A stretch of 64,000 nucleotides of DNA from Eukaryota sp. GEM-RC1 (lineage: Eukaryota): positions 3,472,001-3,536,000 of the forward strand of contig JAUFOQ010000001.1 of assembly GCA_040285855.1 (NCBI GenBank). The letters are read 5' to 3'. Numbering within the stretch: position 1 is the first letter of the stretch; each line of letters begins with the position of its first letter. Position numbers and translations under genes: made by a program. Positions 1 through 63,357 of the stretch are shown piece by piece. The notes under the pieces were generated by a model. The model was not told the origin of the DNA, ran no database searches, and saw only the letters and a program-made list of their open reading frames with translations.

Positions 1-1138
1 TTTCGTTCTTGCTTACCCCAATACCATTAAGAAAACAGTTACCCAGATTAACCATGGCTTCAGCATCACCTCGTTCTGCAGCTTCTTGGTAACCTTCAAA
101 AGCTAATTCATCATTACTTTTCTCTAATTGAAGATCATTTTCCAGAGAATTGTTCAACTCAAAGACTTCAATGGTTTGTTCAATTTCTTTCAACTCTTTC
201 AGTACATCATTAATAGAAGGTCTTTCACTAGGATTAACTGAAAGACATTTGTTAATCAAGGTTAAAATTGGCCCAGGAAAACCATCAGGAAAGCTCAATA
301 AATGTTCATTTTGTTTAGCCGTAACTACTTCCAAAACAAGCATATCCTCAAAGGCAAGTCTATTGGTAAACATTTCATAAAACAATATTCCCAGACTATA
401 AACGTCGAAAGCTGGTCCATAGATTTTACTGAAAGCTTCTGGAGGAGTGTACTTCGGAGTTACTTGGAGCGTGGAGGTGTAGTTGTACTTGGTCCGTGAA
501 GAACCAAAATCGGCGAGTTTGACCTGTGAGTTAACTATAATGACATTTTGGGGCTTAATGTCATGGTGTACAATTTCCTTGGAATGTAAGTACTTTACAG
601 CGGTACATACATCAATAGCTTGAGCAAGGGTGGTGGAAGAAAGAGATGTTGGAACTTGTAAGTGTTCAGAACCAAGTTCCATCAAGATACCAATGTGCTT
701 CGGAAGTCTGGTTATACCAAACACTCGAAGGACAAAAGGATGAGACAAAGAGGCCATGTGGGAGACTTCCTGCAAGAGTCTTGCTTCATTCTGATCAGCT
801 TTGCGGACGAGCTTCAAAGCAACTTTGGTGTCAGCCCATTCACAGAGATAAACAGTTCCGCTGATTCCACTACCCAATTCATCGTTGAGGTGGAAACTGA
901 GGTCTTCAGACGGAATCTCGGGTAGGGCGGCAGGATTCCTAACAAAAGCATCGACAGCTTCGCGGACAACATAATTAGGAGCAACATCAATGATAGAGGC
1001 TTGTTTACGACAATTAGGACAATTTTGGTGCCCTTCTAGCCATTCAGTAATACACGTGAGACAAAAGGAATGTCCACAGGGTAGTGTGGAAGCCTTGTCA
1101 AAGATTGAGGAGCAAATCGAGCAATCTAAGTGAAGCAT
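1..1138 (-). CDS. RING finger-Ser/Thr kinase-(Sel1 repeat) protein, copy 1 (3' part runs off the window)
   Basis: Reverse strand from ATG 1138 reads [29 protein letters not shown] (RING), then kinase HHDIKPQN and DFGSSR, then the first Sel1-like unit. Highly similar at DNA level to 35041-36180 and 46490-47623. Confidence 0.9.
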   Translation of the reverse strand, partial: MLHLDCSICSSIFDKASTLPCGHSFCLTCITEWLEGHQNCPNCRKQASIIDVAPNYVVREAVDAFVRNPAALPEIPSEDLSFHLNDELGSGISGTVYLCEWADTKVALKLVRKADQNEARLLQEVSHMASLSHPFVLRVFGITRLPKHIGILMELGSEHLQVPTSLSSTTLAQAIDVCTAVKYLHSKEIVHHDIKPQNVIIVNSQVKLADFGSSRTKYNYTSTLQVTPKYTPPEAFSKIYGPAFDVYSLGILFYEMFTNRLAFEDMLVLEVVTAKQNEHLLSFPDGFPGPILTLINKCLSVNPSERPSINDVLKELKEIEQTIEVFELNNSLENDLQLEKSNDELAFEGYQEAAERGDAEAMVNLGNCFLNGIGVSKNE

Positions 1139-1225
1139 TGCTGCAAGATGAGATAAATATCTTGTGAATTTGTGTCAGCCCAAAATTGTCACGTGACAAT
1201 ATTTATAAGTTAAATTTTTGAATTA

Positions 1226-34629: not shown

Positions 34630-35040
34630 TTGCCTGGATGCTAAAGTCAGATTGTTTACCTTAGTTGAAATTAGAACTAGAAGTACATGTATTATCTAAT
34701 CCCAAGTCTTCAGAGCCGAAACAAGTCTGTTACTTGCCCTTTTGTCAACGAACTTAAAGTTATTGAGTGTTAAGATTTAGATTTGTTTTTTGTCGAGGTT
34801 CAAGGACAGGTTGTAAACGAGTTAAAGAACGAAAATTCAAATGTATACTCAAAGGATAAGACCTACAAGCCGAACTCTAGTGCTCATTTCGAATTCAGTG
34901 TTATCAAAATCACAAAGTGTGTCAATATCAGCTGCCTTTTCAGCTCTGATAGAAGTCAAAATTCATTGAATGGAATGGTGTTTGCTGACGTGCTATTTTT
35001 GACCTGCTGAAAAAATTTGAAAGAACTTTGTCTATCTACA

Positions 35041-37946
35041 ATGCTTCATTTGGAATGCTCGATCTGCTCCTCAATCTTTGACAAGGCTTCCACGCTTCCT
35101 TGTGGTCACTGCTTTTGTCTCACGTGTATTTCTAAATGGCTAGAAGGGCACCGAAATTGTCCTAATTGTCGTAGACATGCCTCTATCAATGTTGTTGCTC
35201 CTTGTTATGCTCTCCGTGAAGCTGTTGACGCTTTTGTTAAGAATCCCGCCGCCCTACCCGAGATCTCCTCCGAAGACCTCAGTTTCAACCTCAACGATGA
35301 ATTGGGTAGTGGAATAAGCGGAACTGTTTATCTCTGTGAATGGGCTGACACCAATGTTGCTTTGAAGCTCGTCCGTAAAGCTGATCAGAATGAAGCAAGA
35401 CTCTTGCAGGAAGTCTCCCACATGGCCTCTTTGTCTCATCCTTTTGTCCTTCGAGTGTTTGGTATAACCAGACTTCCTAAGCACATTGGTATCTTGATGG
35501 AACTTGGTTCTGGACATTTACAAGTTCCAACATCTCTTGCTCCCACCACCCTTGCTCAAGCTATTGATATATGTACCGCTGTGAAGTACTTGCATTCCAA
35601 GGAAATTGTACACCATGACATTAAGCCTCAAAATGTAGTTATCGTAAACTCACAGGTCAAACTCGCCGATTTTGGTTCTTCACGGACCATGTACAACTAC
35701 ACCTCCACGCTCCAAGTAACTCCGAAGTACACTCCTCCAGAAGCTTTTAAGAAAATCTATGGACCAGCTTTCGACGTTTATAGTCTGGGAATATTGTTTT
35801 ATGAAATGTTTACCAATAGACTTGCTTTTGAAGGTATGCTTGTTTTTGAAGTAGTTGAGGCTAAACAAAATGAACATTTATTGAGCTTTCCTGATGGTTT
35901 TCCTGGGCAAATTTCATCGTTGATTAACAAATGTCTTTCAGTTAATCCTAATGAAAGACCTTGTATTAATGATGTACTGAAAGAGTTGAAAGAAATTCAA
36001 GGAACCATTGAGGTCTTTGAGTTGAACAATTCTCTAGAAAATGATCTTCAAATAGAAAAAAGTAATGATGAATTAGCTTTTGAAGGTTACCAAGAAGCTG
36101 CAGATCGAGGTGATGCTGAAGCCATGGTTAATATGGGTAACTGTTTTCTTAATGGTATTGGGGTAAGCAAGAACGAAAGACAAGCTCTTCACTGGTTCTT
36201 GGAAGCTTATTCTAAGGGAAACTTTAACGCAGGCACATACTTAGGGCAAACTGTTTTTGGTGTCAAAAACACGCAGAATTAGGTAATGAACTTGTAATGA
36301 AAGCTCTTGGTGATTGTTACAAAAGTGGACAAGGAATCCAAAAAGACCAATCGAAAGCTGTATACTGGTATCAAAAAGCGGCAGATTTGGGTAAATCTAG
36401 TGCCATGGTTAATCTTGGTATTTGTTACTACAATGGACAAGGAATCCAAAAAGACCAATCGAAGGCTGTATACTGGTATCAAAAAGCGGCAGATTTGGGT
36501 AAATCTAGTGCCATGGTTAATCTTGGTATTTGTTACTACAATGGACAAGGAATCCAAAAAGACCAATCGAAGGCTGTATACTGGTATCAAAAAGCGGCAG
36601 ATTTGGGTGAATCTAGTGCCATGGTTAATCTTGGTATTTGTTACTACAATGGACAAGGAATCCAAAAAGACCAATCGAAGGCTGTATACTGGTATCAAAA
36701 AGCGGCAGATTTGGGTGAATCTAGTGCCATGGTTAATCTTGGTATTTGTTACTGCAATGGACAAGGAATCCAAAAAGACCAATCGAAGGCTGTATACTGG
36801 TATCAAAAAGCGGCAGATTTGGGTGAATCTAGTGCCATGGTTAATCTTGGTATTTGTTACTACAATGGACAAGGAATCCAAACAGATCACGCAACAGCTG
36901 TGTACTGGTATCAAAAAGCGGCAGATTTGGGTTACTCTGGTGCCATGTCTAATCTTGGTGTTTGTTACGAAATTGGACAAGGAATTGAAAAAGATCACGC
37001 AACAGCTGTGTACTGGTATCAAAAAGCTGCAGATTTGAATCACACTGTTGCAATGAATAATCTTGGTTATTGTTACCAAAATGGACAAGGAATTGAAAAA
37101 GATCACGCCACAGCTGTGTACTGGTATCAAAAAGCGGCAGATTTGGGTTACTCTGGTGCCATGTCTAATCTTGGTGTTTGTTACAAAAATGGACAAGGAA
37201 TCCAAAAAGATCACTCAAAAGCTGTGTACTGGTATCAAAAAGCGGCAGATTTGGGCAACTCTTATGCCATGTATAATCTTGGTGTTTGTTACGAAATTGG
37301 ACAAGGAATTGAAAAAGATCACGCAACAGCTGTGTACTGGTATCAAAAAGCGGCAGATTTGGGTTACTCTGGTGCCATGTCTAATCTTGGTGTTTGTTAC
37401 AAAAATGGACAAGGAATCCAAAAGATCACTCAAAAGCTGTGTACTGGTATCAAAAAGCGGCAGATTTGGGCAACTCTTATGCCATGTATAATCTTGGTGT
37501 TTGTTACGAAATTGGACAAGGAATTGAAAAAGATCACGCAACAGCTGTGTACTGGTATCAAAAAGCGGCAGATTTGGGTAATTCTAGTGCCGTGAATAAT
37601 CTTGGTGTTTGTTACCAAAATGGACAAGGAATTGAAAAAGATCATTCAAAAGCTGTATACTGGTTTCCAAAAAGCGGCAGATTTGGGTGACTCTAATGCC
37701 ATGTATAATCTTGCACTTTGTTACGAAAATGGAGAAGGAATCCAAAAAGACCAATCAAAAACTGTGTACTGGTATCAAAAAGCTGCAGATTTGGGTCACT
37801 CTGATGCCATGTTTAATCTGGGTAATTGTTACGATAATGGAGAAGGAATTGAAAACGACCAATCAAAAGCTGTGTACTGGTATCAAAAAGCTGCAGATTT
37901 GGGTGACTCTGATGCTTTAAGGCAACTAGAACGATTATTGAGTTGA
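35041..37946 (+). CDS. RING finger-Ser/Thr kinase-Sel1 repeat protein, copy 2
   Basis: RING CSIC...PCGHCFCLTC...CPNC and kinase GSGISG, VALK, HHDIKPQN, DFG, TPPE. About 15 tandem 108-bp Sel1 repeats. Frameshifts near 36258, 37420 and 37668. Confidence 0.92.
36297..37915 (+). repeat. 108-bp coding tandem repeat (Sel1-like)
   Basis: Near-identical units such as AMVNLGICYYNGQGIQKDQSKAVYWYQKAADLGESS. Confidence 0.95.
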
Positions 37947-44404: not shown

Positions 44405-47400
44405 TCATCCTAATAGTCGTTCTAGTTGCCTTTGGGCTTTAGAGTCACCCAAATCTGCAGCTTTTTGACACCAGTACACCGCTTTTGAGTGATCTTTTGG
44501 ATTCCTTGTCCATTGTAGTAACTAGCACCAAGATTAAACATAGCATCAGAGTGACCCAAATCTGCAGCTTTTTGGAAACCAGTACACAGCTTTTGAGTGA
44601 TCTTTACGGATTCCTTGTCCATTGTAGTAACTAGCACCAAGATTAAACATAGCATCAGAGTGACCCAAATCTGCAGCTTTTTGGAAACCAGTACACAGCT
44701 TTTGAGTGATCTTTACGGATTCCTTGTCCATCGAAGCAACAAATACCAAGATTATTCATGGCACCAGAATTTCCCAAATCTGCAGCTTTTTGAAACCAGT
44801 ACACAGCTTTTGAGTGATCTTTACGGATTCCTTGTCCATTGTAGTAACTAGCACCAAGATTAAACATAGCATCAGAGTGACCCAAATCTGCAGCTTTTTG
44901 GAAACCAGTACACAGCTTTTGAGTGATCTTTACGGATTCCTTGTCCATCGAAGCAACAAATACCAAGATTATTCATGGCACCAGAATTTCCCAAATCTGC
45001 AGCTTTTTGATACCAGTACACAGCTGTTGCGTGATCTTTTTGGATTCCTTGTCCATTTTTGTAACAAAAACCAAGACTAATCATGGCACCAGAATTTCCC
45101 AAATCTGCAGCTTTTTGATACCAGTATACCGCTTTTGAGTGATCTTTTTGGATTCCTTGTCCATTGTAGTAACTAGCACCAAGATTAAACATAGCATCAG
45201 AGTGACCCAAATTGGCAGCTTTTTGATACCAGTAGGCAGCTTTTGAGTGATCTTTTGGATTCCTTGTCCATTCTCGTAACAAAAACCAAGAGTAAACATG
45301 GCATCAGAATTTCCCAAATCTGCAGCTTTTTGATACCAGTACACAGCTGTTGCATCATCTTTTTGGATTCCATTTTCGTAACAATCACCAAGATTATTCA
45401 TGGCAAAAGAATTTCCCAAATCTGCAGCTTTTTGATACCAGTACACAGCTTTTGAGTGATCTTTTGGATTCCTTGTCCATTTTCGTAACAATCACCAAGA
45501 TTATTCATGGCAAAAGAATTTCCCAAATCTGCAGCTTTTTGATACCAGTACACAGCTTTTGAGTGATCTTTTGGATTCCTTGTCCATTTTCGTAACAAAT
45601 ACCAAGATTATTCATGGCATTAGAATTTCCCAAATCTGTAGCTTTTTGATACCAGTACACAGCTGTTGCGTGATCTTTTGGATTCCTTGTCCATTTTCGT
45701 AACAATCACCAAGATTATTCATGGCACCAGAATTTTCCAAATCTGCAGCTTTTTGATACCAGTACACCGCTTTTGAGTGATCTTTTGGATTCCTTGTCCA
45801 TTTTCGTAACAAATACCAAGATTATTCATGGCATTAGAATTTCCCAAATCTGTAGCTTTTTGATACCAGTACACAGCTGTTACGTGATCTTTTTGGATTC
45901 CTTGTCCATTTTCGTAACAATCACCAAGATTATTCATGGCACCAGAATTTTCCAAATCTGCAGCTTTTTGATACCAGTACACCGCTTTTGAGTGATCTTT
46001 TGGATTCCTTGTCCATTTTCGTAACAATCACCAAGATTATTCATGGCACCAGAATTTTCCAAATCTGCAGCTTTTTGATACCAGTACACCGCTTTTGAGT
46101 GATCTTTTGGATTCCTTGTCCATTTTCGTAACAAATACCAAGATTATTCATGGCATTAGAATTTCCCAAATCTGTAGCTTTTTGATACCAGTAAACAGCT
46201 TTTGAGTGCTCCTTTTGGATTCCTTCTCCATTGTGGTAACAAACACCGAGATTATTCATTGCAACTGTTTTACCCAAATTGGCAGCCTGTTGATACCAGT
46301 AAACAGCTTTTGAGTGATTCTTTTGGATTCCTTCTCCATGGTGGTAACAAACACCCAAAGCAGTCATTGCAAGTTCATCGCCTATTTCTGCGTGTATTTG
46401 ACACCATTGAATAGTTTGCCCTAAGTTATTTCTCGCGTTAGAGTTTCCCTTATAAAGAGCTTCCAAGAACCAGTAAACAGCTTGTCTTTCGTTCTTGTTT
46501 ACCCCAATACCATTAAGAAAACAGTTACCCAGATTAACCATGGCTTCAGCATCACCTCGTTCTGCAGCTTCTTGGTAACCTTCAAAAGCTAATTCATCAT
46601 TACTTTTTTCTATTTGAAAATCATTTTCTATAGTATTGTTCAACTCAAAGACTTCAATGGTTCCTTGAATTTCTTTCAACTCTTTCAGTACATCATTAAT
46701 AGAAGGTCTTTCACTAGGATTAACTGAAAGACATTTGTTAATCAAGGTTAAAATTGGCACAGGAAAACCATCAGGAATGCTCAATAAATGTTCTTTTGTT
46801 TAGCCTCAACTACTTCAAAAACTGACATACTTTCAAAGGCAAGTCTATTGGTAAACATTTCATAAAACAATATTCCCAGACTATAAACGTCGAAAGCTGG
46901 TCCATATTTTTTACTGAAAGCTTCTGGAGGAGTGTACTTCGGAGTTACTTGGAGCGTGGAGGTGTAGTTGTACATGGCCCGTGAAGAACCAAAATCGGCG
47001 AGTTTGACCTGTGAATTTACGATAATGACATTTTGGGGCTTAATGTCATGGTGGACAATTTCCTTGGAATGCAAGTACTTCACAGCGGTACATATATCAA
47101 TAGCTTGAGCAAGGGTGGTGGGAGAAAGAGATGTTGGAACTTGTAAATGTCCAGAACCAAGTTCCATCAAGATACCAATGTGCTTCGGAAGTCTGGTTAT
47201 ACCAAACACTCGAAGGACAAAAGGATGAGACAGAGAGGCCATGTGGGAGACTTCCTGCAAGAGTCTTGCTTCATTCTGATCAGCTTTACGAACGAGTTTC
47301 AAAGCAACTTTGGCGTCAGCCCATTCACAGAGATAAACAGTTCCGCTAATTCCACTACCCAATTCATCGTTGAGGTTGAAACTGAGGTCTTCAGACAGTA

Positions 47401-47623
47401 TCTCGGGAAGGGCGGCGGGATTCTTGACAAAAGCGTCAACAGCTTCACGGAGAGCATAGCTAGGGGCAACATCATTGATAGAGGCTTGCTTACGACAATT
47501 AGGACAATTTTGGTGTGCTTCTAGCCATTCAGAAATACACGTGAGACAAAAACAGTGACCACAGGGCAGTGTGGAAGCTTTGTCAAAGGTTGAGGTGCAG
47601 ATCGAGCAATCTAAATGAAGCAT
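44405..47623 (-). CDS. RING finger-Ser/Thr kinase-Sel1 repeat protein, copy 3 (many apparent frameshifts)
   Basis: Same architecture as copy 2. About 18 Sel1 units ending KAQRQLERLLG*. Repeated 1-nt indels in A/T runs. Confidence 0.88.
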
Positions 47624-48099
47624 TATAGAGATGAGAGAAAGATTCACTAAATTTGTGTTAGCTCAAAACTGTCACGTGGCATCTATATATACATTATACA
47701 CCATGTCCATTGTTTGAATAGATACTTCAAGAAAAAACATCGAGGGTTTTGACCTTGGGAATCAACAGCAATTGTTGTCAAGATCCACTTGTCACTGGAT
47801 GGTGAGTCTACAACAGTTTTTGGAAAGTCTTGACGCTGATGTTTGGTCGTCACTCGTTCCTGTTTGTCAGATTCCTCAATGAAGTGTTTTTTCTCTTCCA
47901 ATGTGTGTTTATCAACTACAGAAAAAATTCATCAGTAATCACGGAAGCTTGGATTTTCAAAATCGTATTAGCTCAGCTAAAACTTATCGTCTCGCTTTTT
48001 TGTCTTTCTTGATGGATGTTTCTAGCGATTGTGCTTGAGCGCTGGTTATTCGTCAGACAATTTTGTTTTAATCTAGAAGATCATGAATGACTGATATAC

Positions 48100-48923: not shown

Positions 48924-51900
48924 CTAATTACCATAGAGAAAATCAAACATCGACTTGAATACATTTTCTCCTAAATCCAATTCAACATCAATGTCATCAA
49001 CTCTAATACAAAGCTTACCAGTACCTAGAACGTCAGTTGCTGAACCATAGTTTAACAGAGGAACTACTGCACCAAGCTTAGGAATCTTCTCAAGAAGATC
49101 AGTTGAAACTACTAAAGCTGCAGCACAAACAACAACACGAATAGAAGTTTCATCAAGTAAAACAGTTTGTTCACCCAAATGTTTAAAATAATGAGGAATT
49201 TCAGAAAATGATGAAAAAGTACATCCAAGTTTTGATACAACTAACGAATCACGAGTATTTGAATTCGTTTTTAAAATATCCAATAATTCACAATCACTGG
49301 TCTCAACAAATACTTCAATTAAATCACCTGGAACCAATCCCAATGTTTTCCTCATCTTTTGAACAACAGCAACTACTTCCCGAACCTTTCTCAACTCCAA
49401 TAACTCAGGAGTAACAGACAGATTCAACAAAACAAGAGAGCCTTCATCTCCTGGCATTGCCTCGTAAAACTGACTACTACTCTGCTTAAAAGAACGTACA
49501 AGAATCAAATCATTAGGAGTGAAAGTGAATCCACCCAATTCAATCATTCCTTGATCTCTACAACGATTGATGTCGTCATGAGTCATTTGAGAGACAATCT
49601 TTCCAGCTTCCTTCATTTTTTTGCCTAGTTTGGGTCCTAATGCTTTAAAGTTAGCATTAGCAGACAGAATAACGTAATCAGCTTCATTGGAAGTTGCAAT
49701 AACGGAAACCAATGACGTTTCTGATTTAATATAAGGAGCAGTAGTTTCAATGTCAGAAATATAGGTAGGGTCACTATGGATAACTACTACTTCTGATAAT
49801 GGTTGTTTAACAGGAAGCTTATTTCGATCTCTCATAGTCCTAATCTTAACCACAACGTCCTGCATTCTAGACACCATTCGTTCAACTTCTAAGTGTTGGG
49901 CCTGTTCTTGAGGCTTAGGGAAAGACAAGAAGTGAACAGAAAGCTCATGGATTTCAGTAGTTATATACTTGTTCAGTCGATGATAGATATGTTCAGTCAT
50001 GAAGCATGCAAAAGGAGCCATACAGAGGTTGAACTGGTACAAAACATGGAATAAAGTTTGGAGGGCAGCTACAGAGTCAGCTTCACCCAACAAACCCTTA
50101 AGTCTATCTCTATTCAATCTAACGTACCAATTAGATAGATCTTGAATGAACTCTAACATTTTAGGTACAACTGAGTAGACTCTATAGTTTTCCATTTCAG
50201 TCTGGACAACCTCAACTAATGAATTAAGAGAAGAAATGATCCACTTATCAAAGATATTGTCAGAAGCCAAAGCTTTAGTGGTTTCAGGAATAAACTTTTC
50301 AAACTTTGCTTCATAACGATCAATATTTTGGAGTAAAAAGTTGAACGTGTTGTACCAGGGAATTAACACGTCCCTAACAATTCCTTCAACTCCGTCTTTT
50401 CTAAATCTAAAGCTTTCTCCTCTCATTACTTGAGAATTGATCAAGTAAAGTCTTAGAGCATCGGCTCCGTGGTCCTCAATTACTAACATAGGATCAGGAT
50501 AATTTTTTAATCTTTTAGACATCTTTCTTCCATCAGGAGCTAAGATTAAACCAGTAACTACCAAGTTCTTAAAGGCGGGAGAGTCAAAAGAGCGGTAGAT
50601 AGCACTAACATGGTGTAGAACCATCCACGTGTTTGGTCAAGTGCTTCAGCTACGAAGTCTGCAGGGAAAGAGTTCATAAATAACTCTGGATTGGTGAAAG
50701 GATAATGCTGAGAAGCATATGGCATAGAACCAGACTCGAACCAACAATCAAATACTTCAGGAATTCTTTTGAGAGGCTCACCATTGGGATTCTTTGATGG
50801 AATGATGATGTCATCAACGTGATCACGATGAAGGTCAGAAATACGTGTACCACTGAGCTCTTCTAAATGATCAACTGATGACACGACAACAATTTCAGAA
50901 AAGTCAGAATTAGACCATATTGGAATAGGAGTCCCAAAGAATCTCGACCTACTAATAGCCCAATCACGAGAATCACGTAACCAATTATGAAACCTTCCTT
51001 CTTGAATATTCTCAGGAACCCACTTACTCTTGAGATTATTCACTAAAAGTCTCTCCTTAAGTTCTGTAACCTTGACAAACCAAGAAGGTACAGCTCTGTA
51101 TAATAGAGGAGTATCAGATCTCCAACAGAAGGGATAAGAATGTTTAACAACAGACTTACTCCAGAGACGGTTGTTGGCTTTCAACTCAGCAATGATTGCA
51201 GCATCAGCGTCCTTCACGTATTGACCTGCATACGTGGCAACTTCCTTAGTGAAATTACCAGCACCATCAATAGGACAGACCGGGGGGTTACCTGGGGATA
51301 CTATCTTGTACAAATCACCAACACGGGCATCGTCTTCACCAAAACCAGGAGCACAATGAACAACACCAGTACCAGTTTCAGAAGTAACAAAAGTATCACA
51401 AACAATAATAAAGGAGTTTGGACGATCCTTGAAGAAAGTAAAGAGAGGAACGTAAGAGAGACCTTTGAGATTCGAACCTGGGAAAGTAGCTTCAATCTCA
51501 TAGGGAAGTTCTGGTTGTTCACCTTTCTTTTCTTAATTGGAGGAAACAACGCATCAACACGAGACTGTGCGACAATGAGCTTCTTACCAGTTTCCTTGAC
51601 AACAAGTCTAACGTAGTCAAACTCAGGATGTACTACAAGAGCAAGGTTAGAGGGGAGAGTCCAGGGAGTGGTAGTCCAAGCAACAAGAGAGACATCGGGC
51701 TGATCTACTAGGGGGAAGGTGATGAATATGGCGGGATCGCTGACGTCCTTGTAGTTCTGATTGGCTTCAAAGTTGGAAAGGGAAGTCTGGAGACCAGTAG
51801 ACCAAGGCATGACCTTAGTACCACGGTAAACGAGATCCTTTTCCCATAGCTGAGAGAAGACATACCAGACAGACTCCATGTAACTGGGGTCCATGGTCTT

Positions 51901-52405
51901 GTAGTCGTCTTTAAACTCGATCCAACGTCCGATACGGGAGATGACGTGTTCCCATTCTTCACGGCAGCGCATAACAATGGATCGGCAAATGTTGTTGTAG
52001 TTTCCAATACCCATGGCTTGTACATCGGCTTCTCCGTGGATACCGTGGAGTTTGTCAACTTCGTGCTATGATTAGAAGGATGAGAAGGGGGCAATACCTC
52101 AATAGGAAGACCGTGTGTGTCCCAGCCAAATCTACGAGGAATATGGTGGCCTTTCATGGTAAAGAATCTAACGACAACATCCTGCAATAAGCGAAACAGG
52201 ATGAACAAACTTTAAGGATAGAGATCAAGATATGTCCATAATGAGGAGTTCCAGTAGCAAAAGGGGGTCCATCATAAAAGCGATATTCAGGGAGATCTTT
52301 GGTCTTTTCTAGGAGAGTATGAAAGGCATCAATTTCATCCCAATACTTTAAGATGTCATTCTCAGAGGGCAGGGAAGTCATTTTATTGAGAGAAAAAGTT
52401 TTCAT
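48924..52405 (-). CDS. IARS1: Isoleucine-tRNA ligase, cytosolic type
   Basis: [45 protein letters not shown] and KMSKR. Introns 52182-52210 and 52066-52097. Several apparent frameshifts. Confidence 0.95.
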
Positions 52406-57827: not shown

Positions 57828-59108
57828 CGGAATGTGAAGAAGTGGATTATGATCAATCTTATGCATTTTTATGTTTGTACTTGTAACCACAAGCAAGAGA
57901 TTGTGTTGTTACAAAGGTCGGTATTGCTGCTGTTGCAACCATATGGTTCGATGTCAGAAAAAACAATTAATGGGACATTTTCTATCTGACAGGAAGGTCA
58001 TTGTTATTAACCACCAAACTCCTGGTAGGTGGGTGCTGAACCTCTGAATTTTAGTTTCTTAAAATCTCAAATTATCAAGTGAGTTCTTGGCTTATCAAGT
58101 GAGTTCATGTTCATCACTACACAAAAGATGAGTTGGAGTACATCAACAATGCTGTTATTGGTCCACACTATCTTAAAAATGCAAAGATTTCCAATACGGT
58201 TTGTTCTTCAAAGATCCATCTGCTGGTAGAATCTTAAACACAAGAATTGGAGGTATTACCCTAGTTTTGTGATTATGTGATTAGAAATCATCCAATTTGC
58301 AGAATCAAATGTGATTTGTCAAGACTTGAAATGTAGACTGTTGTTCAACCACTACTAATACAACAGAATTTCAATCTCAAATTTATCTGGGTAAGTCAAG
58401 CTGGTTAACTGTTTCTCTGACACAATAAAAGATCTCTATCTTTCATTTCAAACCATCTATAGATTCAGATGAATGTAAAAAGGCTGAAGCTATAAAACAA
58501 GTCTTTTAGTTTGTCTAATAAATATTTTGTAGAATGTAAATAAATATTGTTTAGACAAATAAGCATACGTCGACTGGGAATTCCTTATTGATGATGCTTT
58601 ATTTTGTTCATAAAGTCAAGCCACTTATGTCAGTCTATTGTCCCTATTTAATGTTGTTTAGTTGTGTCACGTGTAACATCACATTTAGTCATTTGTCTGT
58701 GAGAAATTAACCTAAATGAAAGTGATATATGGGTTCTGAATTGTGGTTACTGACTATTATTGCTTTCTATATGTTCAAGTGATAGTACTGTAGCTTATTG
58801 TAGAATTGTTCTTTTTACTTCAATCTTTTCTTTCCTACATAAATCGTAGCAGGTTTTCTCTTATTAAGCATCACAAAACAACCATTAAAATATACGATAT
58901 AAATTTATCAAACGTAACTAACAATACTATATCCCCCATCACTCTTGCAAACATCACATCCAAAAAATTCGAATCCTTAAATCCAATCCCACAACAATAC
59001 ACACACATCAATTCACGAAACTCATCCAATATTCCAAAACACTGTTCATCACAAATCAATTCATGATTTGATATCTAGTTTCGACATAACAAAAGTATTG
59101 GTTAAGAA

Positions 59109-59843
59109 CATAGTTGCGAATCACAAATTTTTGTGATGTGATTTTGTGATGTGATTGTTGTGACTCACAAAATCACAAAGGCATCCATTTGTGATGTGAA
59201 ATTGTGATTGCTGTGATTTCCAATATCACAAAGTAAACAATTTGTGATTTTGTGATGTGATTGTTGTGATATGTAATTTCTTAGATTTTACATTACCATG
59301 TGTTTATTACTATCATAAACAATGTTACGTACAAGAATTCGGATCACCAACTTATGAGATAGAAGTAAATTTAACATCGGAACTGAAAAAACAATTATTG
59401 TTTTTTTTAAAAAACAAATGTCTTAATATTTTCCATCTATCTTAGACTCCATGGAAGAACATAACTAGCTTACATCCGAAAACTTCCTTAAGTAACTTCC
59501 TTTGGGACACGATTGGAGAGTTACGAAATCTGATAGCCCATTTGGAAAGTCAACAATATGAACTTCATATTATGAAGCACTTTGATTCTATTACTCAAAG
59601 GTCGGATTTGGAATATTATCGGACCTTACTACTAAAAACTCCAAAGGTCTTCCAGCGTGAAATTCAGCGTAAGAACAAGACACTTGCTTCAGTTTTTACA
59701 TTTCATTAACTTTCCAGACTATTTTTTGTTCAATCATTGTGATGTTGTGATGTTAAATCACAAATATCACAAAAATATTACTTGTGATGTGATTATTGTG
59801 ACTCACAAAATCACAAATTCAAATTTTGTGATTCGCAACTATG
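59109..59843. mobile_element. Non-autonomous hAT-type element
   Basis: Perfect 19-bp TIR catagttgcgaatcacaaa, 8-bp TSD GTTAAGAA, tgtgat subterminal repeats. Confidence 0.92.
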
Positions 59844-59907
59844 GTTAAGAACAAAACATTGAAGTACAGTGTACTTGTCCCTATCATTTAAATGAAAACT
59901 CAAAATT

Positions 59908-60190
59908 TTGACCATTCAAGGTCACGGTAGACCTACCATCCTCGAGAGACCAAAATATCAAACAGTACCTGTCGTGGATGGCGGGAAGACAGATCCAATT
60001 CCTAAGAAAATGACTGTAAGTAAGGGTAAGGGTAAGGCAAAGCGTCCTCTAACAACTATGAGAGGTCCTAACAGATGTCGTATATGTTCTCAACCTGGTC
60101 ATAACATAACAACTTGTCCTAAGGGTCCTAAGGTTTTGCGAATTAGGACAATTATTTGTCAAACTGCGGATTTGCTCATGAGCAACAATA
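59908..60190 (+). pseudogene. 3' remnant of a second Fanzor copy (C-terminal tail plus CCHC knuckle)
   Basis: TIQGHGRPTILERPKYQT...CRICSQPGHNITTC aligns with TINGQGRPSALERSKTQT...CGNCGQEGHNKRSC at 62380-62613. Confidence 0.8.
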
Positions 60191-62780
60191 GTTTTCATTT
60201 TGGGTGAATATCCCCATTTTACCAATTCCCCCACACACCCAATTCCCACAACCTCTTTTTACTTATGGGATACACTTTTGAGATACTCTGGGACTCAAGA
60301 CTCGACTTAACGAGCATGTCTGTCCACGCTTCTGGACACGATTTCCAAAAATCTTCAAGACTAGAAATGAACGAAAAAGAAAAAATTGCATTTCAGTACT
60401 TGAACAACTTTTCTCCACTGCTACAACAGTTGTCTGATGAAATTGGAACAAATCAAATTTCTTTTCCTGATTCTACGTCAATGTCTCCCATATTTCATTA
60501 CACTGCCAAACAAATTTCTACAAATTATGCCAACAATATGGTCAAAAATTTTCATGATTATGTATTCAGATTCTTTAATCTGGTAAAAAGAAAGAAAGTA
60601 AGACTTGAACAAATAAGTGATCAAGTTGATAAGAAAGAATTGATTTCGAAATTGAATTCAGTCAGAGATTCGATTATCAATGGAAATTTTGATGAAATTC
60701 CCATTAATAATCACAAGATCTTCCCTTATCCACTTGAAGAATTAACATTGAGGTTTTTTGCGTATTTGAAATTTTCTTTGTTTCCAATGTTTTCAAAAAG
60801 AACATTTACTATTTACAGAAAGTAAAGCCGATGCAGTTAATTTCTCATGCTCTATACATCAACCGAACAATACAATCTTTGTGTTTGGTTGATGGAAAAC
60901 CAATCAGTGTAAACAATCCTTTTCCAATGACGAAGACATTGATTCCCCAGCATATTCGTTTGGACACTGATTGGATTAATCAAAGATTTGTCCATATATG
61001 TCGTGGCAAAAAAGCAGATGAAATAAGGAAAAAGGTTTTTGATCAGGTCCTTACTGACAAAGCTGTGGCACCAACAAAATCATTTGTCTTTAGATATTCT
61101 TCAATTCTGACTGATGGAATTTCTTGTTTGGTTTTAATGAGGAAAGATTTAGTTGATGAAGATGGAAATACTTTCAAAGATTTTACTGCTAAATCTCTCG
61201 GAACTTCGGAAAGATACATTCACTCTTTATCAAATGAGAATATTCACGAATTACAATTGAAAGAAAAAAAGAATTGTCGGTGTCGATCCCAATGAATATG
61301 ATTTAATGTATTGTGTTTCTGAAAAGACAGTCGATGAGCTTAAAGAAGAAGATATTTCTGGAAATAATCCACTCAAAAACGATTACCCTCAGAAATCAGA
61401 AGTAAGAAAAGAGGAGGAATTAAGAAAAGAAAGAAACAATTACAAGATTGGAAAAATTCGAATAATGATGTAAAATCAAAGAAAAAGGCTAAGCACAAAT
61501 GGAAGAAGTTTAATTACACAGCTGGAGAAAGAGCTTATGATAGGAAATCTAAAAAATATTGTAAATCTGAAAATAGAAAACTGAAAGAATTTTCTATCGA
61601 ATCACCAGATGAAACTGTCACTGAAAGACAACTTAAAGATTTTTTGGTTCTTCGTCCTGATAATATTCTTGTAACAGGAAGAGATGTCGTTAACCAATTT
61701 TCCAATGCTGTATCAAATGGGGAAAGAAAGTCGTGTTTCAGTGACACATTTGAAACATATATTAAAGAAGCTGAACGATATAACGTATATTTGAGTTTTT
61801 TTTACGAAGATGACTGGTTTAGAAAGAGGAAATTCCAAATTTATTCAAATAACCAACAATCGGAGAAAAACATGCTGGAACGCTTCAATTTAACATATGG
61901 ACCTCCAGAAGACGTCATCATTGGCTATGGGGATTGGAGCTCAAAAGGTAAAACAAGAAAGGGTAAAACCTCAACGGTTAGAGGAGTGGAAATCCGTAAA
62001 ATGTTAAGAAGATATGGATACCAAATATTTCTTGTTGATGAATACAGAACAAGCAAGTGTTGTTCCAAATGTGCTGAGGAAAAATCAACTTTCGTAGAAT
62101 GTGAAAATGTTTCAGAACTAAAGGTTCTTGGTCCCAAAGGTAAGAGACAGCTAAGAAGGACGAAGAGAAATTTAAGAAGAGAAATTTTGCTCGAAAACAA
62201 ACAAGATCCTCTAAACCAACGGGATTTTGGAAGCAGAGTGGGAGGTGAAGCAGAAGTCATTGGAAGAAGAAGCTAAATCCACACCCTGGGGACTGGTAAG
62301 GTGCTCAGATGCTGAGTGTGGTACTTATTGGAATAGAGACCTAAATTCTGCCATTAATATCTATTCCATCATTGAAGCAACGATCAATGGTCAAGGTAGG
62401 CCATCCGCTCTCGAGAGATCTAAAACTCAAACAACAGATCTCGAGAGTGGTAAGGATACTTTGGCGAGAGACCAGAAGGAGAAGACTGTGACCAAGAAGG
62501 AGAAAACTTCAACAGGAAAGAAGAAGACTGTGACCGGAAAGAACAAAACTTCAACAGGAAAGAAGAAAACATGTGGAAATTGTGGCCAAGAAGGTCATAA
62601 CAAAAGGTCATGCAAGAATCCACCAAAAGAAATGAGTTCGCCTAAAAGAAGAAGCGTAATGTCAGTCCAGCAGACGAATGTCTCTCGTAAAGAACTTTAG
62701 TGTACTCTTAACAGTACGCAGCGAAGTGGGCTTAGCTCACTGAGTGTCTGTGGTTTCGATACTCTAATCAAAATGAAAAT
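60191..62780 (+). mobile_element. Fanzor-carrying element with short imperfect inverted ends
   Basis: ta|gttttcattttg at 60189-60202 and caaaatgaaaat|ta at 62769-62782. The 11-bp core is perfect. No transposase inside. Confidence 0.6.
60265..62700 (+). CDS. Fanzor (Fanzor1-like TnpB homolog), about 810 aa over five reading segments
   Basis: NIYY..K..P, PQHIRLDT and ILTDGISC. RuvC-I IVGVDPN (D at 61285). IIGYGDWS. RuvC-II plus zinc finger LVDEYRTSKCCSKC (E at 62040). RCSDAEC...WNRDLNSAINI (D at 62338). Frameshifts near 60785, 61270, 61435 and 62225. Confidence 0.9.
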
Positions 62781-62800
62781 TAACAAAGTTGTGTACTTTG
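62700..62800 (+). ncRNA. Candidate Fanzor omegaRNA (scaffold about 62700-62780, putative guide from about 62781)
   Basis: Three consecutive hairpins with G-U pairs favouring the + strand: gtgtact/agtacgc 62700-62719, agtgggc/gctcact 62725-62741 and gagtgtc/gatactc 62742-62764. They end next to the right inverted end. Confidence 0.65.
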
Positions 62801-62874
62801 GGAATACTAGTATCCATTTGAGTTGAGAACCACAGTAGTGAAAATGTATCAAGTTAATGATAAAGTTAGAAACA

Positions 62875-63357
62875 ATGTCTTCCACTAAATTAAATGGCCA
62901 GCTCTTATTAGCTTGGGGTTCTGAAACTGGAACTGTGGATCAAGCCCAAGACGATTTATGCGATCGACTTCGTCCTCTTGGAGTTGACGTCTTGTCTAAA
63001 GAACTAAACGACGTCACAGCTGATGACATTAGAGAAGCCAACCTAACCTTAATTTTGGTGTCCTCAGCTTCTGGAGGTGAAGTACCAGGAAATGCCGAGG
63101 ATTTCTTGTCTGAAATGCAGGACTTAGCTGCTTCTGATCCGAAAGCTCTTGAAGGTGTTAGATTTGTTCTGTTTGGATTTGGTGATCGAACATATGACGA
63201 TACTTTCCAGTTTGGACCTCTCTCGATTTGGAAGGTTATGAATGATTTGGGAGCTTCTCCAGTAATGGAAAGAGGTGTTGGAGATGCAAATGATGATGAT
63301 GGTATTGAAGGCACTTTTGATCCTTTTGTTGAAGAGTTTATAGAAAAGTTTTTGTAA
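62875..63357 (+). CDS. Stand-alone flavodoxin
   Basis: LAWGSETGT FMN loop, SSASGGEVPGNA, FVLFGFGDRTY. Acidic, about 160 aa. Confidence 0.88.
   Translation: MSSTKLNGQLLLAWGSETGTVDQAQDDLCDRLRPLGVDVLSKELNDVTADDIREANLTLILVSSASGGEVPGNAEDFLSEMQDLAASDPKALEGVRFVLFGFGDRTYDDTFQFGPLSIWKVMNDLGASPVMERGVGDANDDDGIEGTFDPFVEEFIEKFL

What the first reader, a model, noticed from the sequence alone, without database searches (positions are those of the whole stretch)
62380..62700. Fanzor C-terminal extension: Lys/Thr repeat, CCHC zinc knuckle and NLS-like tail
Seen: about 120 aa follow the RuvC-III aspartate. They include 30-nt repeats (EKTVTKKEKTSTGKKKTVTGKNKTSTGKKKT), CGNCGQEGHNKRSC (62572-62613) and SPKRR. 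The upstream remnant keeps the same linker plus knuckle despite divergence, so this is a family trait. I do not recall this appendage in characterised Fanzors. Inference: an added nucleic-acid-binding or nuclear-targeting module, possibly captured from a transposase (the MULE here ends in a similar knuckle).
Basis: partly seen in the sequence, partly recalled or inferred. Interest (0 to 1): 0.7.

Follow-up and report, generated by a model that had tools for sequence, protein, structure and literature searches.

The report
Fanzor nuclease with borrowed zinc-knuckle tail
A broken copy of a transposon-borne Fanzor RNA-guided nuclease gene ends in an extra flexible, positively charged tail with a small zinc-knuckle motif. 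The tail is shared by several Fanzor families of one protist group, was likely taken from a Mutator-type transposase, and is predicted to help grip RNA or DNA.

Summary
The tail is in frame with RuvC-III, with 119 aa after the Asp, of which about 93 are extra. The knuckle is at 62572-62613. The repeat is 2 x 42 nt, not 30 nt, and varies between copies; SPKRR occurs in one family only. The upstream remnant is the 3' end of a second Fanzor1 family (cluster of 26 proteins). Four divergent families keep all four zinc ligands while most other positions differ. All 6 knuckle-bearing proteins among the 150 best of 1,462 hits come from two skoliomonad protists; 0 of 128 other hits with a RuvC-III motif have one. 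One family's knuckle matches the window's MULE transposase knuckle at 14 of 17 positions, which supports capture from a MULE. Two new points. First, a hairpin with compensatory changes overlaps the first codons of the tail. Second, published Fanzor1 sequences already carry knuckle-like motifs at the N-terminus, so only the C-terminal position looks new. The window copy is 5'-truncated and frameshifted. Function is untested; an accessory nucleic-acid-binding tether is most likely. The scan's earlier notes held nothing similar. Verdict: new variant of Fanzor1, moderate interest.

The parts
60340..62700 (+). Fanzor1 gene, family A; 5'-truncated, four frame changes at A/T runs (near 60795, 61268, 61375, 62225)
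   Evidence: 81-91% identical to P0009, P0026, P0002; Pfam Cas12f1-like_TNB below its curated cut-off on the split pieces
61285..61287 (+). RuvC-I catalytic Asp (DPN context)
   Evidence: the same context aligns with SpuFz1 for family B protein P0014
62040..62042 (+). RuvC-II catalytic Glu, just before the zinc ribbon
   Evidence: E442 of P0014 nearly invariant in alignment A2
62061..62319 (+). C4 zinc ribbon (TNB), its two Cys pairs lying on either side of a frame change
62338..62340 (+). RuvC-III catalytic Asp
62341..62418 (+). Ordinary last RuvC helix and GRP-x2-L-x-R motif, where most Fanzor1 proteins nearly end
62405..62450 (+). RNA hairpin overlapping the end of the core and the first codons of the tail
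   Evidence: z -4.0 to -4.9 on the sense strand, 0 of 300 shuffles as stable; 10 of 11 pairs of the family B hairpin kept, 2 by double change
62419..62571 (+). Lys/Thr-rich linker, 51 aa, predicted disordered
62476..62559 (+). Two 42-nt tandem copies inside the linker; copy number differs between family A copies
62572..62613 (+). CCHC zinc knuckle, C-x2-C-x4-H-x4-C
   Evidence: Pfam zf-CCHC E 0.048, below cut-off; best-predicted part of the tail, block pLDDT 82 and 76
62614..62700 (+). Basic 28-aa end with SPKRR (62638-62652) and stop codon
   Evidence: SPKRR not conserved in families B, C, D
62700..62840 (+). Structured stretch right after the stop; candidate omegaRNA scaffold (inferred from position)
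   Evidence: z -2.3 and -3.0; no Rfam match; element end not determined
59911..60132 (+). 3' remnant of a second Fanzor1 family (B): end of core, hairpin 59936-59981, linker, knuckle 60076-60117
   Evidence: 76% identical over 74 aa to P0014; Pfam zf-CCHC_2 E 1.3e-5
16497..16538 (+). C-terminal CCHC knuckle of the MULE transposase (ORF 14562-16595), representing the likely donor type

Best explanation
This is a Fanzor1 nuclease gene whose reading frame runs on past the usual end into a predicted flexible basic linker and a CCHC zinc knuckle, likely captured from the end of a Mutator-type (MULE) transposase and likely kept as an accessory module that grips single-stranded nucleic acid. Shown: the tail is in frame; it is shared by four divergent families in two skoliomonad protists; the zinc ligands are invariant while other positions change; one family's knuckle is nearly identical to the MULE knuckle; a sense-strand hairpin with compensatory changes overlaps the start of the tail. 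Inferred: one gain in the ancestor of these families, with at least one later exchange with MULEs. Predicted: the knuckle folds on its own at the end of a 30-60 aa tether next to the RuvC/TNB face that binds the omegaRNA. It would hold the omegaRNA or its precursor transcript (or unwound DNA) and so improve assembly or stability without being needed for cutting; the basic residues would also aid nuclear import. The copy in this window is 5'-truncated and is probably not a working gene.
For: In-frame tail in 5 family A proteins and 16 family B proteins, including three 644-aa open frames running from the WED/RuvC region to the knuckle. Ligands are kept 4 of 4 in families A, B, C (P0079) and D (P0051), with 2-5 of 13 other positions shared between families; the cores of A and B are 34% identical. 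Within family B, 5 of 10 non-ligand positions vary over 17 knuckles and 0 of 4 ligands do. AlphaFold2 on P0014: knuckle blocks pLDDT 86 and 77, linker 577-605 under 50. MULE link: 10 of 13 non-ligand positions and the unusual E-D-H shared by P0051 and the window's MULE, rough binomial P 3e-4, BLASTP E 9e-10. The Atlas structure neighbours of the P0051 tail include SWIM/MULE clusters, all under the tool's bar. C-terminal zf-CCHC in MULE transposases is in print (PMC3441728; zf-CCHC_6 in TEDA and MURA, PMC9569675). Knuckle-bearing rows lie on one branch, support 93/80. The RuvC/TNB surface binds omegaRNA stem-loop 1 (PMC11423790). Nucleic-acid binding by CCHC knuckles is recalled general knowledge.
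Against: No binding, expression or activity data. Close Fanzor1 relatives from TZLM3-RCL (P0004, P0043 groups) lack the knuckle, so it is not needed for the Fanzor fold. The disordered C-terminal domain of ISDra2 TnpB is dispensable for cleavage (PMC10097598). The knuckle of family A itself shares only 3 of 13 non-ligand positions with the MULE, so the MULE origin rests on P0051, a gene model that skips RuvC-III and could be chimeric. The branch support is below the starred level, and two rows with unknown C-termini lie inside it. Pfam scores of the knuckles are under the curated cut-offs. The hairpin comparison rests on two DNA copies only.
Confidence: 0.55

Rival explanations
1. The tail is a by-product: the ORF is overprinted on RNA elements at the 3' end of the transposon (hairpin, omegaRNA precursor), and the captured knuckle is a passenger with no effect on the nuclease.
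For: A conserved hairpin covers the best-conserved part of the linker. TnpB and GtFz1 ORFs overlap their omegaRNA, and the TnpB tail is dispensable. Tails of 75 aa or more occur in 10 of 128 other Fanzor1 hits. Linker length is unstable.
Against: All four ligands survive in four families whose other knuckle positions are about 27% identical (chance about 0.005 per family pair, rough). The knuckle region itself shows no RNA structure (z about 0).
Confidence: 0.17
2. The knuckle is a DNA-binding or protein-binding module that serves the host transposon (end binding, chromatin or transposase contact), as it may in the MULE donor, and does not touch the omegaRNA.
For: Donor type is a DNA transposase. 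Fanzor1 genes are often carried by MuDr and other DNA transposons (PMC3627910).
Against: No transposase gene or terminal repeat was linked to this copy; the MULE lies 45 kb away. The host element is unknown.
Confidence: 0.15
3. The tail's job is nuclear import; the basic clusters matter and the knuckle is secondary.
For: All four tails are Lys/Arg-rich (18-25 K+R in 77-93 aa). Fanzors commonly carry functional NLSs.
Against: No basic motif is conserved between families; the tested Fanzor NLSs were N-terminal; import alone does not explain conserved Cys/His spacing.
Confidence: 0.08
4. The knuckle came from the N-terminus of a neighbouring Fanzor copy by read-through in a tandem array, not from a MULE.
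For: N-terminal knuckle-like motifs exist in published Fanzor1 sequences, and two Fanzor copies lie in tandem here.
Against: Those motifs have H-x7-C spacing, not H-x4-C. The N-termini seen for family A and for the RCL relatives have no knuckle. The best match is the MULE.
Confidence: 0.05

Closest known systems
Fanzor1, SpuFz1 of Spizellomyces punctatus (PDB 8gkh, 9cey); also PpFz1 (9cf0) and GtFz1 (9cer)
   Same: Top sequence match (E 1e-13) and top fold match (E 1e-16) for family B protein P0014; D-E-D triad, DPN context, C4 ribbon between RuvC-II and RuvC-III.
   Different: The SpuFz1 and PpFz1 chains end a few residues after the GRP-like motif; here 77-93 aa follow, with a CCHC knuckle.
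Fanzor1 proteins with an N-terminal knuckle-like motif (SFav-1, HAmv-1, HVav-1 in PMC3627910 file S3; Fanzor50_0009, 0138, 0353, 1290, 1316, 2722, 3635, 3636 in PMC10530073 Data S1)
   Same: A small Cys/His zinc module on a low-complexity, often basic or Thr-rich arm attached to Fanzor1.
   Different: N-terminal, spacing C-x2-C-x4-H-x7-C; here C-terminal with canonical H-x4-C. Not discussed in the passages of those papers that I saw.
C-terminal zinc knuckle of MULE/Mutator transposases (VdMULE8; zf-CCHC_6 in MURA and TEDA)
   Same: Same motif at the end of a basic linker; 14 of 17 positions between P0051 and the window's MULE.
   Different: Attached to an RNA-guided RuvC nuclease instead of a DDE transposase.
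C-terminal domain of ISDra2 TnpB (residues 376-408)
   Same: Disordered extension after RuvC-III encoded on DNA that also encodes RNA structure (PMC10097598).
   Different: That tail is short, unconserved and has no zinc module.

Membership tests
Fanzor1 | D-x(125-275)-[TS]-[TS]-x-x-C4 zinc finger-x(5-50)-RD constellation (PMC3627910) | tested here: met
   Asp 61285, E-Y-R-T-S 62040, Cys pairs 62061 and 62302, RD 62335; spread over three frames in this copy, in one frame in family B protein P0014
Fanzor1 | DP-type RuvC-I motif and RuvC-II Glu shifted next to the zinc ribbon (Yoon et al. preprint) | tested here: met
   DPN rather than DPG, as in SpuFz1; Glu seven codons before the C-x2-C pair
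Fanzor1 | Closest solved relatives and fold are Fanzor1, not Fanzor2 or TnpB | tested here: met
   the 7 hits with E under 0.001 are all Fanzor1; Fanzor2 9b0l ranks 22 (tested on P0014, not on the window's own pieces)
Fanzor1 | omegaRNA encoded at the 3' end of the element | tested here: inconclusive
   Structured stretch 62700-62840 and hairpin 62405-62450; no second copy of the 3' end, no RNA data, no Rfam match
Fanzor1 | RNA-guided DNA cleavage with a TAM | not testable with these tools
   needs biochemistry
Fanzor1 | Intact full-length gene inside a delimited transposon (ends, target duplication) | tested here: not met
   This copy lacks the N-terminal 130-140 aa of P0009/P0026 and has four frame changes; no ends found. 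It is a defective member.
CCHC zinc knuckle (Pfam zf-CCHC clan) | C-x2-C-x4-H-x4-C spacing with conserved ligands | tested here: met
CCHC zinc knuckle (Pfam zf-CCHC clan) | Profile score above the curated cut-off | tested here: not met
   14.2 vs 20.8 bits (window tail), 25.3 vs 27 (remnant), 19.4 vs 22 (P0079)
CCHC zinc knuckle (Pfam zf-CCHC clan) | Compact knuckle fold | tested here: inconclusive
   Locally confident in two models; the fold search of the small low-confidence model gave no match with Z 2 or more
CCHC zinc knuckle (Pfam zf-CCHC clan) | Binds zinc and nucleic acid | not testable with these tools
   needs experiment
MULE-derived C-terminal knuckle | Closer to a MULE knuckle than to other knuckles | tested here: inconclusive
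   Met for P0051 (10 of 13 non-ligand positions), not for the window's family A knuckle (3 of 13); no broad knuckle tree was built
Classical monopartite NLS | Conserved basic cluster that drives import | tested here: inconclusive
   SPKRR in family A only; basic character shared; no NLS predictor was run

The most novel reading that the evidence does not exclude
These Fanzors carry a self-contained cis module: a MULE-derived zinc knuckle on a tether that binds the conserved hairpin written over the tail's own first codons and so directs processing or loading of the omegaRNA from the Fanzor mRNA. More widely, Fanzor1 termini act as docking points that repeatedly take nucleic-acid modules from co-resident transposons (C-terminal knuckle here, N-terminal knuckles elsewhere, a PolB-type exonuclease with a 2A-like motif in the TZLM3-RCL relatives).
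Probability: 0.15. Interest if true: 0.7.

Novelty: new variant of a known kind. Interest (0 to 1): 0.45.

Why it matters
How eukaryotic Fanzors make and load their omegaRNA from a host-transcribed message, and how they adapted after leaving bacteria, is still open. A natural, lineage-restricted tail with conserved zinc ligands and an overlapping conserved hairpin gives a clean deletion test of accessory RNA binding. Gains of knuckles at either end of Fanzor1 suggest a recurring benefit that could be used to improve compact genome editors. If the tail proves neutral, the case is only a record of domain shuffling between transposons in a little-studied protist group.

Tried and rejected
1) Idea that the upstream piece is the N-terminus of the same gene, giving knuckles at both ends: rejected, it matches the C-terminus of family B, and family A has a different N-terminus (P0007-P0009, P0026). 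2) No whole genome was held for the window, so copy number, element ends and codon-level selection could not be measured. 3) No sequencing run was listed, so reads and expression were not examined. 4) Related loci: one metagenome hit, an unrelated knuckle (L001); none in viral contigs. 5) Atlas search with the window's tail gave no usable hit. 6) Fold search of the tail model gave nothing; the model is mostly low confidence. 7) Rfam: one chance-level hit, outside the gene. 8) Programmed -1 frameshifting at the G-GAT-TTT site near 62222 was considered. In this copy a -1 shift leads to a stop within ten codons, and similar breaks at A/T runs occur in the isoleucyl-tRNA synthetase gene, so assembly indels or decay are simpler; reads would be needed. 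9) Earlier scan notes: none on Fanzor knuckles, this genome or this sequence. 10) Paper searches: 'Fanzor' with 'zinc knuckle' 0 papers, with 'CCHC' 0 papers; 'Fanzor', 'exonuclease', 'fusion' listed engineering papers and reviews by title (15 of 25 listed, none opened).

Full report
1. Observation. The frame 62215-62700 carries the second Cys pair of the zinc ribbon, the RuvC-III Asp at 62338 and 119 more residues without a break. The knuckle C-x2-C-x4-H-x4-C is at 62572-62613 and SPKRR at 62638-62652. The repeat is two 42-nt copies, 86% alike, at 62476-62559, not 30 nt. About 26 residues after the Asp are the normal last RuvC helix; the extra part is 93 aa after the GRP-x2-L-x-R motif.

2. 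The gene. It is a Fanzor1. The relative P0014 has SpuFz1 as best sequence match (E 1e-13), and all 7 fold matches under E 0.001 are Fanzor1 structures. The three catalytic residues are present in the window copy. The copy is defective: it lacks the first 130-140 residues of P0009 and P0026 and has four frame changes, each at a run of A or T. The isoleucyl-tRNA synthetase gene in the window has two breaks of the same kind, so some are likely assembly errors, but no reads could be checked. The break before the second Cys pair recurs in other family A copies (P0046, P0048, P0197 end in the same off-frame peptide). No full-length open frame of a knuckle-bearing family was seen; even the 644-aa family B proteins start inside the fold.

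3. Is the tail a family trait? Close relatives are labelled Eukaryota sp. GEM-RC1, TZLM1-RC and TZLM3-RCL. PMC11316075 (passages) describes GEM-RC and TZLM3-RCL as skoliomonad metamonads assembled from Nanopore R9 reads with Illumina correction; that TZLM1-RC is a third skoliomonad is recalled. Family A (85-95% identical to the window): 5 proteins have the knuckle in frame, and P0003 leaves the frame before it. The upstream remnant is 76% identical over 74 aa to family B, a cluster of 26 proteins of which 15 were listed. Of the 13 listed that reach RuvC-III, 12 have the knuckle and one leaves the frame. P0079 (family C) and P0051 (family D, TZLM1-RC) are further variants. A and B cores are 34% identical. 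All four ligands are kept in all four families, while 2-5 of 13 other positions are shared. In 17 family B knuckles 5 of 10 non-ligand positions vary and no ligand does. The Lys/Thr repeat and SPKRR are not shared; linkers run from 32 to 59 aa. AlphaFold2 gives a confident knuckle on a disordered linker in both models.

4. How common is it? A search of 1.84 billion representatives with P0002, which includes the tail, gave 1,462 hits; I could examine the best 150. Six have the motif, five labelled GEM-RC1 and one TZLM1-RC. Of 137 others, 128 have a recognisable RuvC-III motif; none has a knuckle after it, the median tail is 38.5 aa, and 10 have tails of 75 aa or more (one of the 128, P0074, later proved to be a TZLM3-RCL protein). 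The TZLM3-RCL relatives end without a knuckle. In a tree of 33 rows (5 of 38 dropped for lack of the anchor motif), the 4 knuckle rows sit on one branch, support 93/80. Two rows of unknown C-terminus lie on that branch and the knuckle-less RCL rows lie outside. One gain is compatible with this, not proven.

5. Against full novelty. Motif searches of the protein file of PMC3627910 (file S3, searched by short terms, not read whole) show three insect-virus Fanzor1 proteins that begin with C-x2-C-x4-H-x7-C, and one protein with an internal canonical knuckle. PMC10530073 Data S1 (searched likewise; cells cut at 400 characters, so long C-termini were not visible) shows nine rows with a similar N-terminal motif, one of them lacking the last Cys. 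I saw no C-terminal knuckle in these passages. The main supplement of PMC10530073, with its domain-architecture figure S1B, was too large to open and may already list zf-CCHC; supplements of the Yoon preprint were not looked at. Full-text searches for Fanzor with 'zinc knuckle' or 'CCHC' gave 0 papers. About 60% of Fanzors have predicted NLSs (PMC10530073 passages), so a basic end is ordinary.

6. Origin. The window's MULE transposase (Pfam MULE E 1e-20) ends in a knuckle. P0051 matches it at 14 of 17 positions, including the unusual E-D-H (BLASTP E 9e-10; rough binomial P 3e-4 from the other family pairs). The window's own family A knuckle matches it at only 3 of 13 non-ligand positions. Family D is the sister of family A in the core (100/99) yet has the MULE-like knuckle, so either D kept the ancestral state or it was refreshed from a MULE later; I favour exchange. 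P0051 is a gene model that skips RuvC-III, which is a caveat. C-terminal knuckles are described in MULEs (PMC3441728 passage; PMC9569675 passage; PMC3435246 passage, concerned another domain), so the direction MULE to Fanzor is the simpler one. Atlas neighbours of the P0051 tail include SWIM/MULE clusters but are under the bar.

7. The stretch 62405-62450 folds into a hairpin on the sense strand (z -4.0 to -4.9; 0 of 300 shuffles; only 1 of 92 background windows of 140 nt reached z -2.9 or lower). The family B remnant folds at the same place (z -2.1 to -3.3). Ten of its 11 pairs are kept in family A, two by changes on both sides and one by a change on one side. In family D both arms change from Leu-Glu to Phe-Glu, which would fit two self-complementary codon pairs (inference; DNA not seen). 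The hairpin lies where most Fanzor1 ORFs are about to end. A second structured stretch follows the stop (62700-62840; z -2.3 and -3.0) and is the candidate omegaRNA by position. In SpuFz1 the omegaRNA lies between stop and right end, and in GtFz1 it overlaps the last 17 codons (PMC10432273 passages). In SfAV Fanzor1 it maps to the right end (Yoon preprint section 25). Only two DNA copies were available, so this is a lead.

8. Mechanism. Shown: in-frame tail, conserved ligands, restricted distribution, MULE-like knuckle in one family, overlapping hairpin. Inferred: capture from a MULE and retention by selection. Predicted: the knuckle hangs on a 30-60 aa tether from the end of RuvC, whose RuvC/TNB face binds omegaRNA stem-loop 1 (PMC11423790 passages), and adds affinity for the omegaRNA, its precursor or unwound DNA. 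Nucleic-acid binding by knuckles is recalled, not tested here. It should be dispensable for cutting, as the TnpB tail is (PMC10097598 passages) and as knuckle-less relatives suggest. Odds: accessory single-stranded nucleic-acid binder 0.55, neutral passenger on an overprinted RNA region 0.17, DNA or protein contact for the host transposon 0.15, import signal only 0.08, origin from a tandem Fanzor N-terminus 0.05.

9. Verdict. A real, lineage-restricted domain addition to a known family: new variant of Fanzor1. Interest 0.45. It is testable and apparently unreported at the C-terminus, but knuckle appendages have N-terminal precedent, this copy is defective, and function is unshown.

Noticed in passing
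P0004, P0005, P0006, P0043 and cluster members (TZLM3-RCL): Close Fanzor1 relatives of 1,180-1,490 aa carry a 2A-like motif (label recalled) and a PolB-type 3'-5' exonuclease domain (Pfam PF03104, E 1e-11 to 1e-15) fused in front of the nuclease; multi-copy. Possibly more striking than the knuckle.
   Followed up: partly
PMC3627910 file S3 and PMC10530073 Data S1: An N-terminal C-x2-C-x4-H-x7-C motif, once in tandem, recurs in Fanzor1 proteins of families 3 and 4 and was not discussed in the passages I saw.
   Followed up: partly
window 59092-59860: About 770-bp element bounded by 58-nt inverted arms with 53-nt subterminal repeats and no long ORF, just upstream of the family B remnant; MITE-like.
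   Followed up: no
window 59911-62700: Two 5'-truncated Fanzor copies of different families lie head to tail; 60133-60340 between them matches neither family's proteins.
   Followed up: partly
window 48924-52211 (-): Isoleucyl-tRNA synthetase-like gene (name from its motifs, recalled) with a 35-nt GT-AG intron and two frame breaks at A/T runs, which points to residual assembly indels.
   Followed up: partly
window about 62222: Family A copies differ in the length of the T run at this site, and none of the copies seen is in frame across it; the site reads G-GAT-TTT.
   Followed up: partly
window 14562-16595 (+): MULE transposase in one open frame of 677 codons with a C-terminal knuckle.
   Followed up: partly
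window 2-1174 (-), 35011-37595 (+), 46041-47662 (-): Three copies of a RING finger + kinase + Sel1-like repeat gene (domain names from the translation, recalled), two with frame breaks.
   Followed up: no
window 62842-63357 (+): Flavodoxin gene (Pfam E 1e-16) starting within about 40 nt of the candidate omegaRNA end.
   Followed up: no
window 19616-20236 (+): Fragment resembling a hAT-type transposase C-terminus (recalled from the translation).
   Followed up: no
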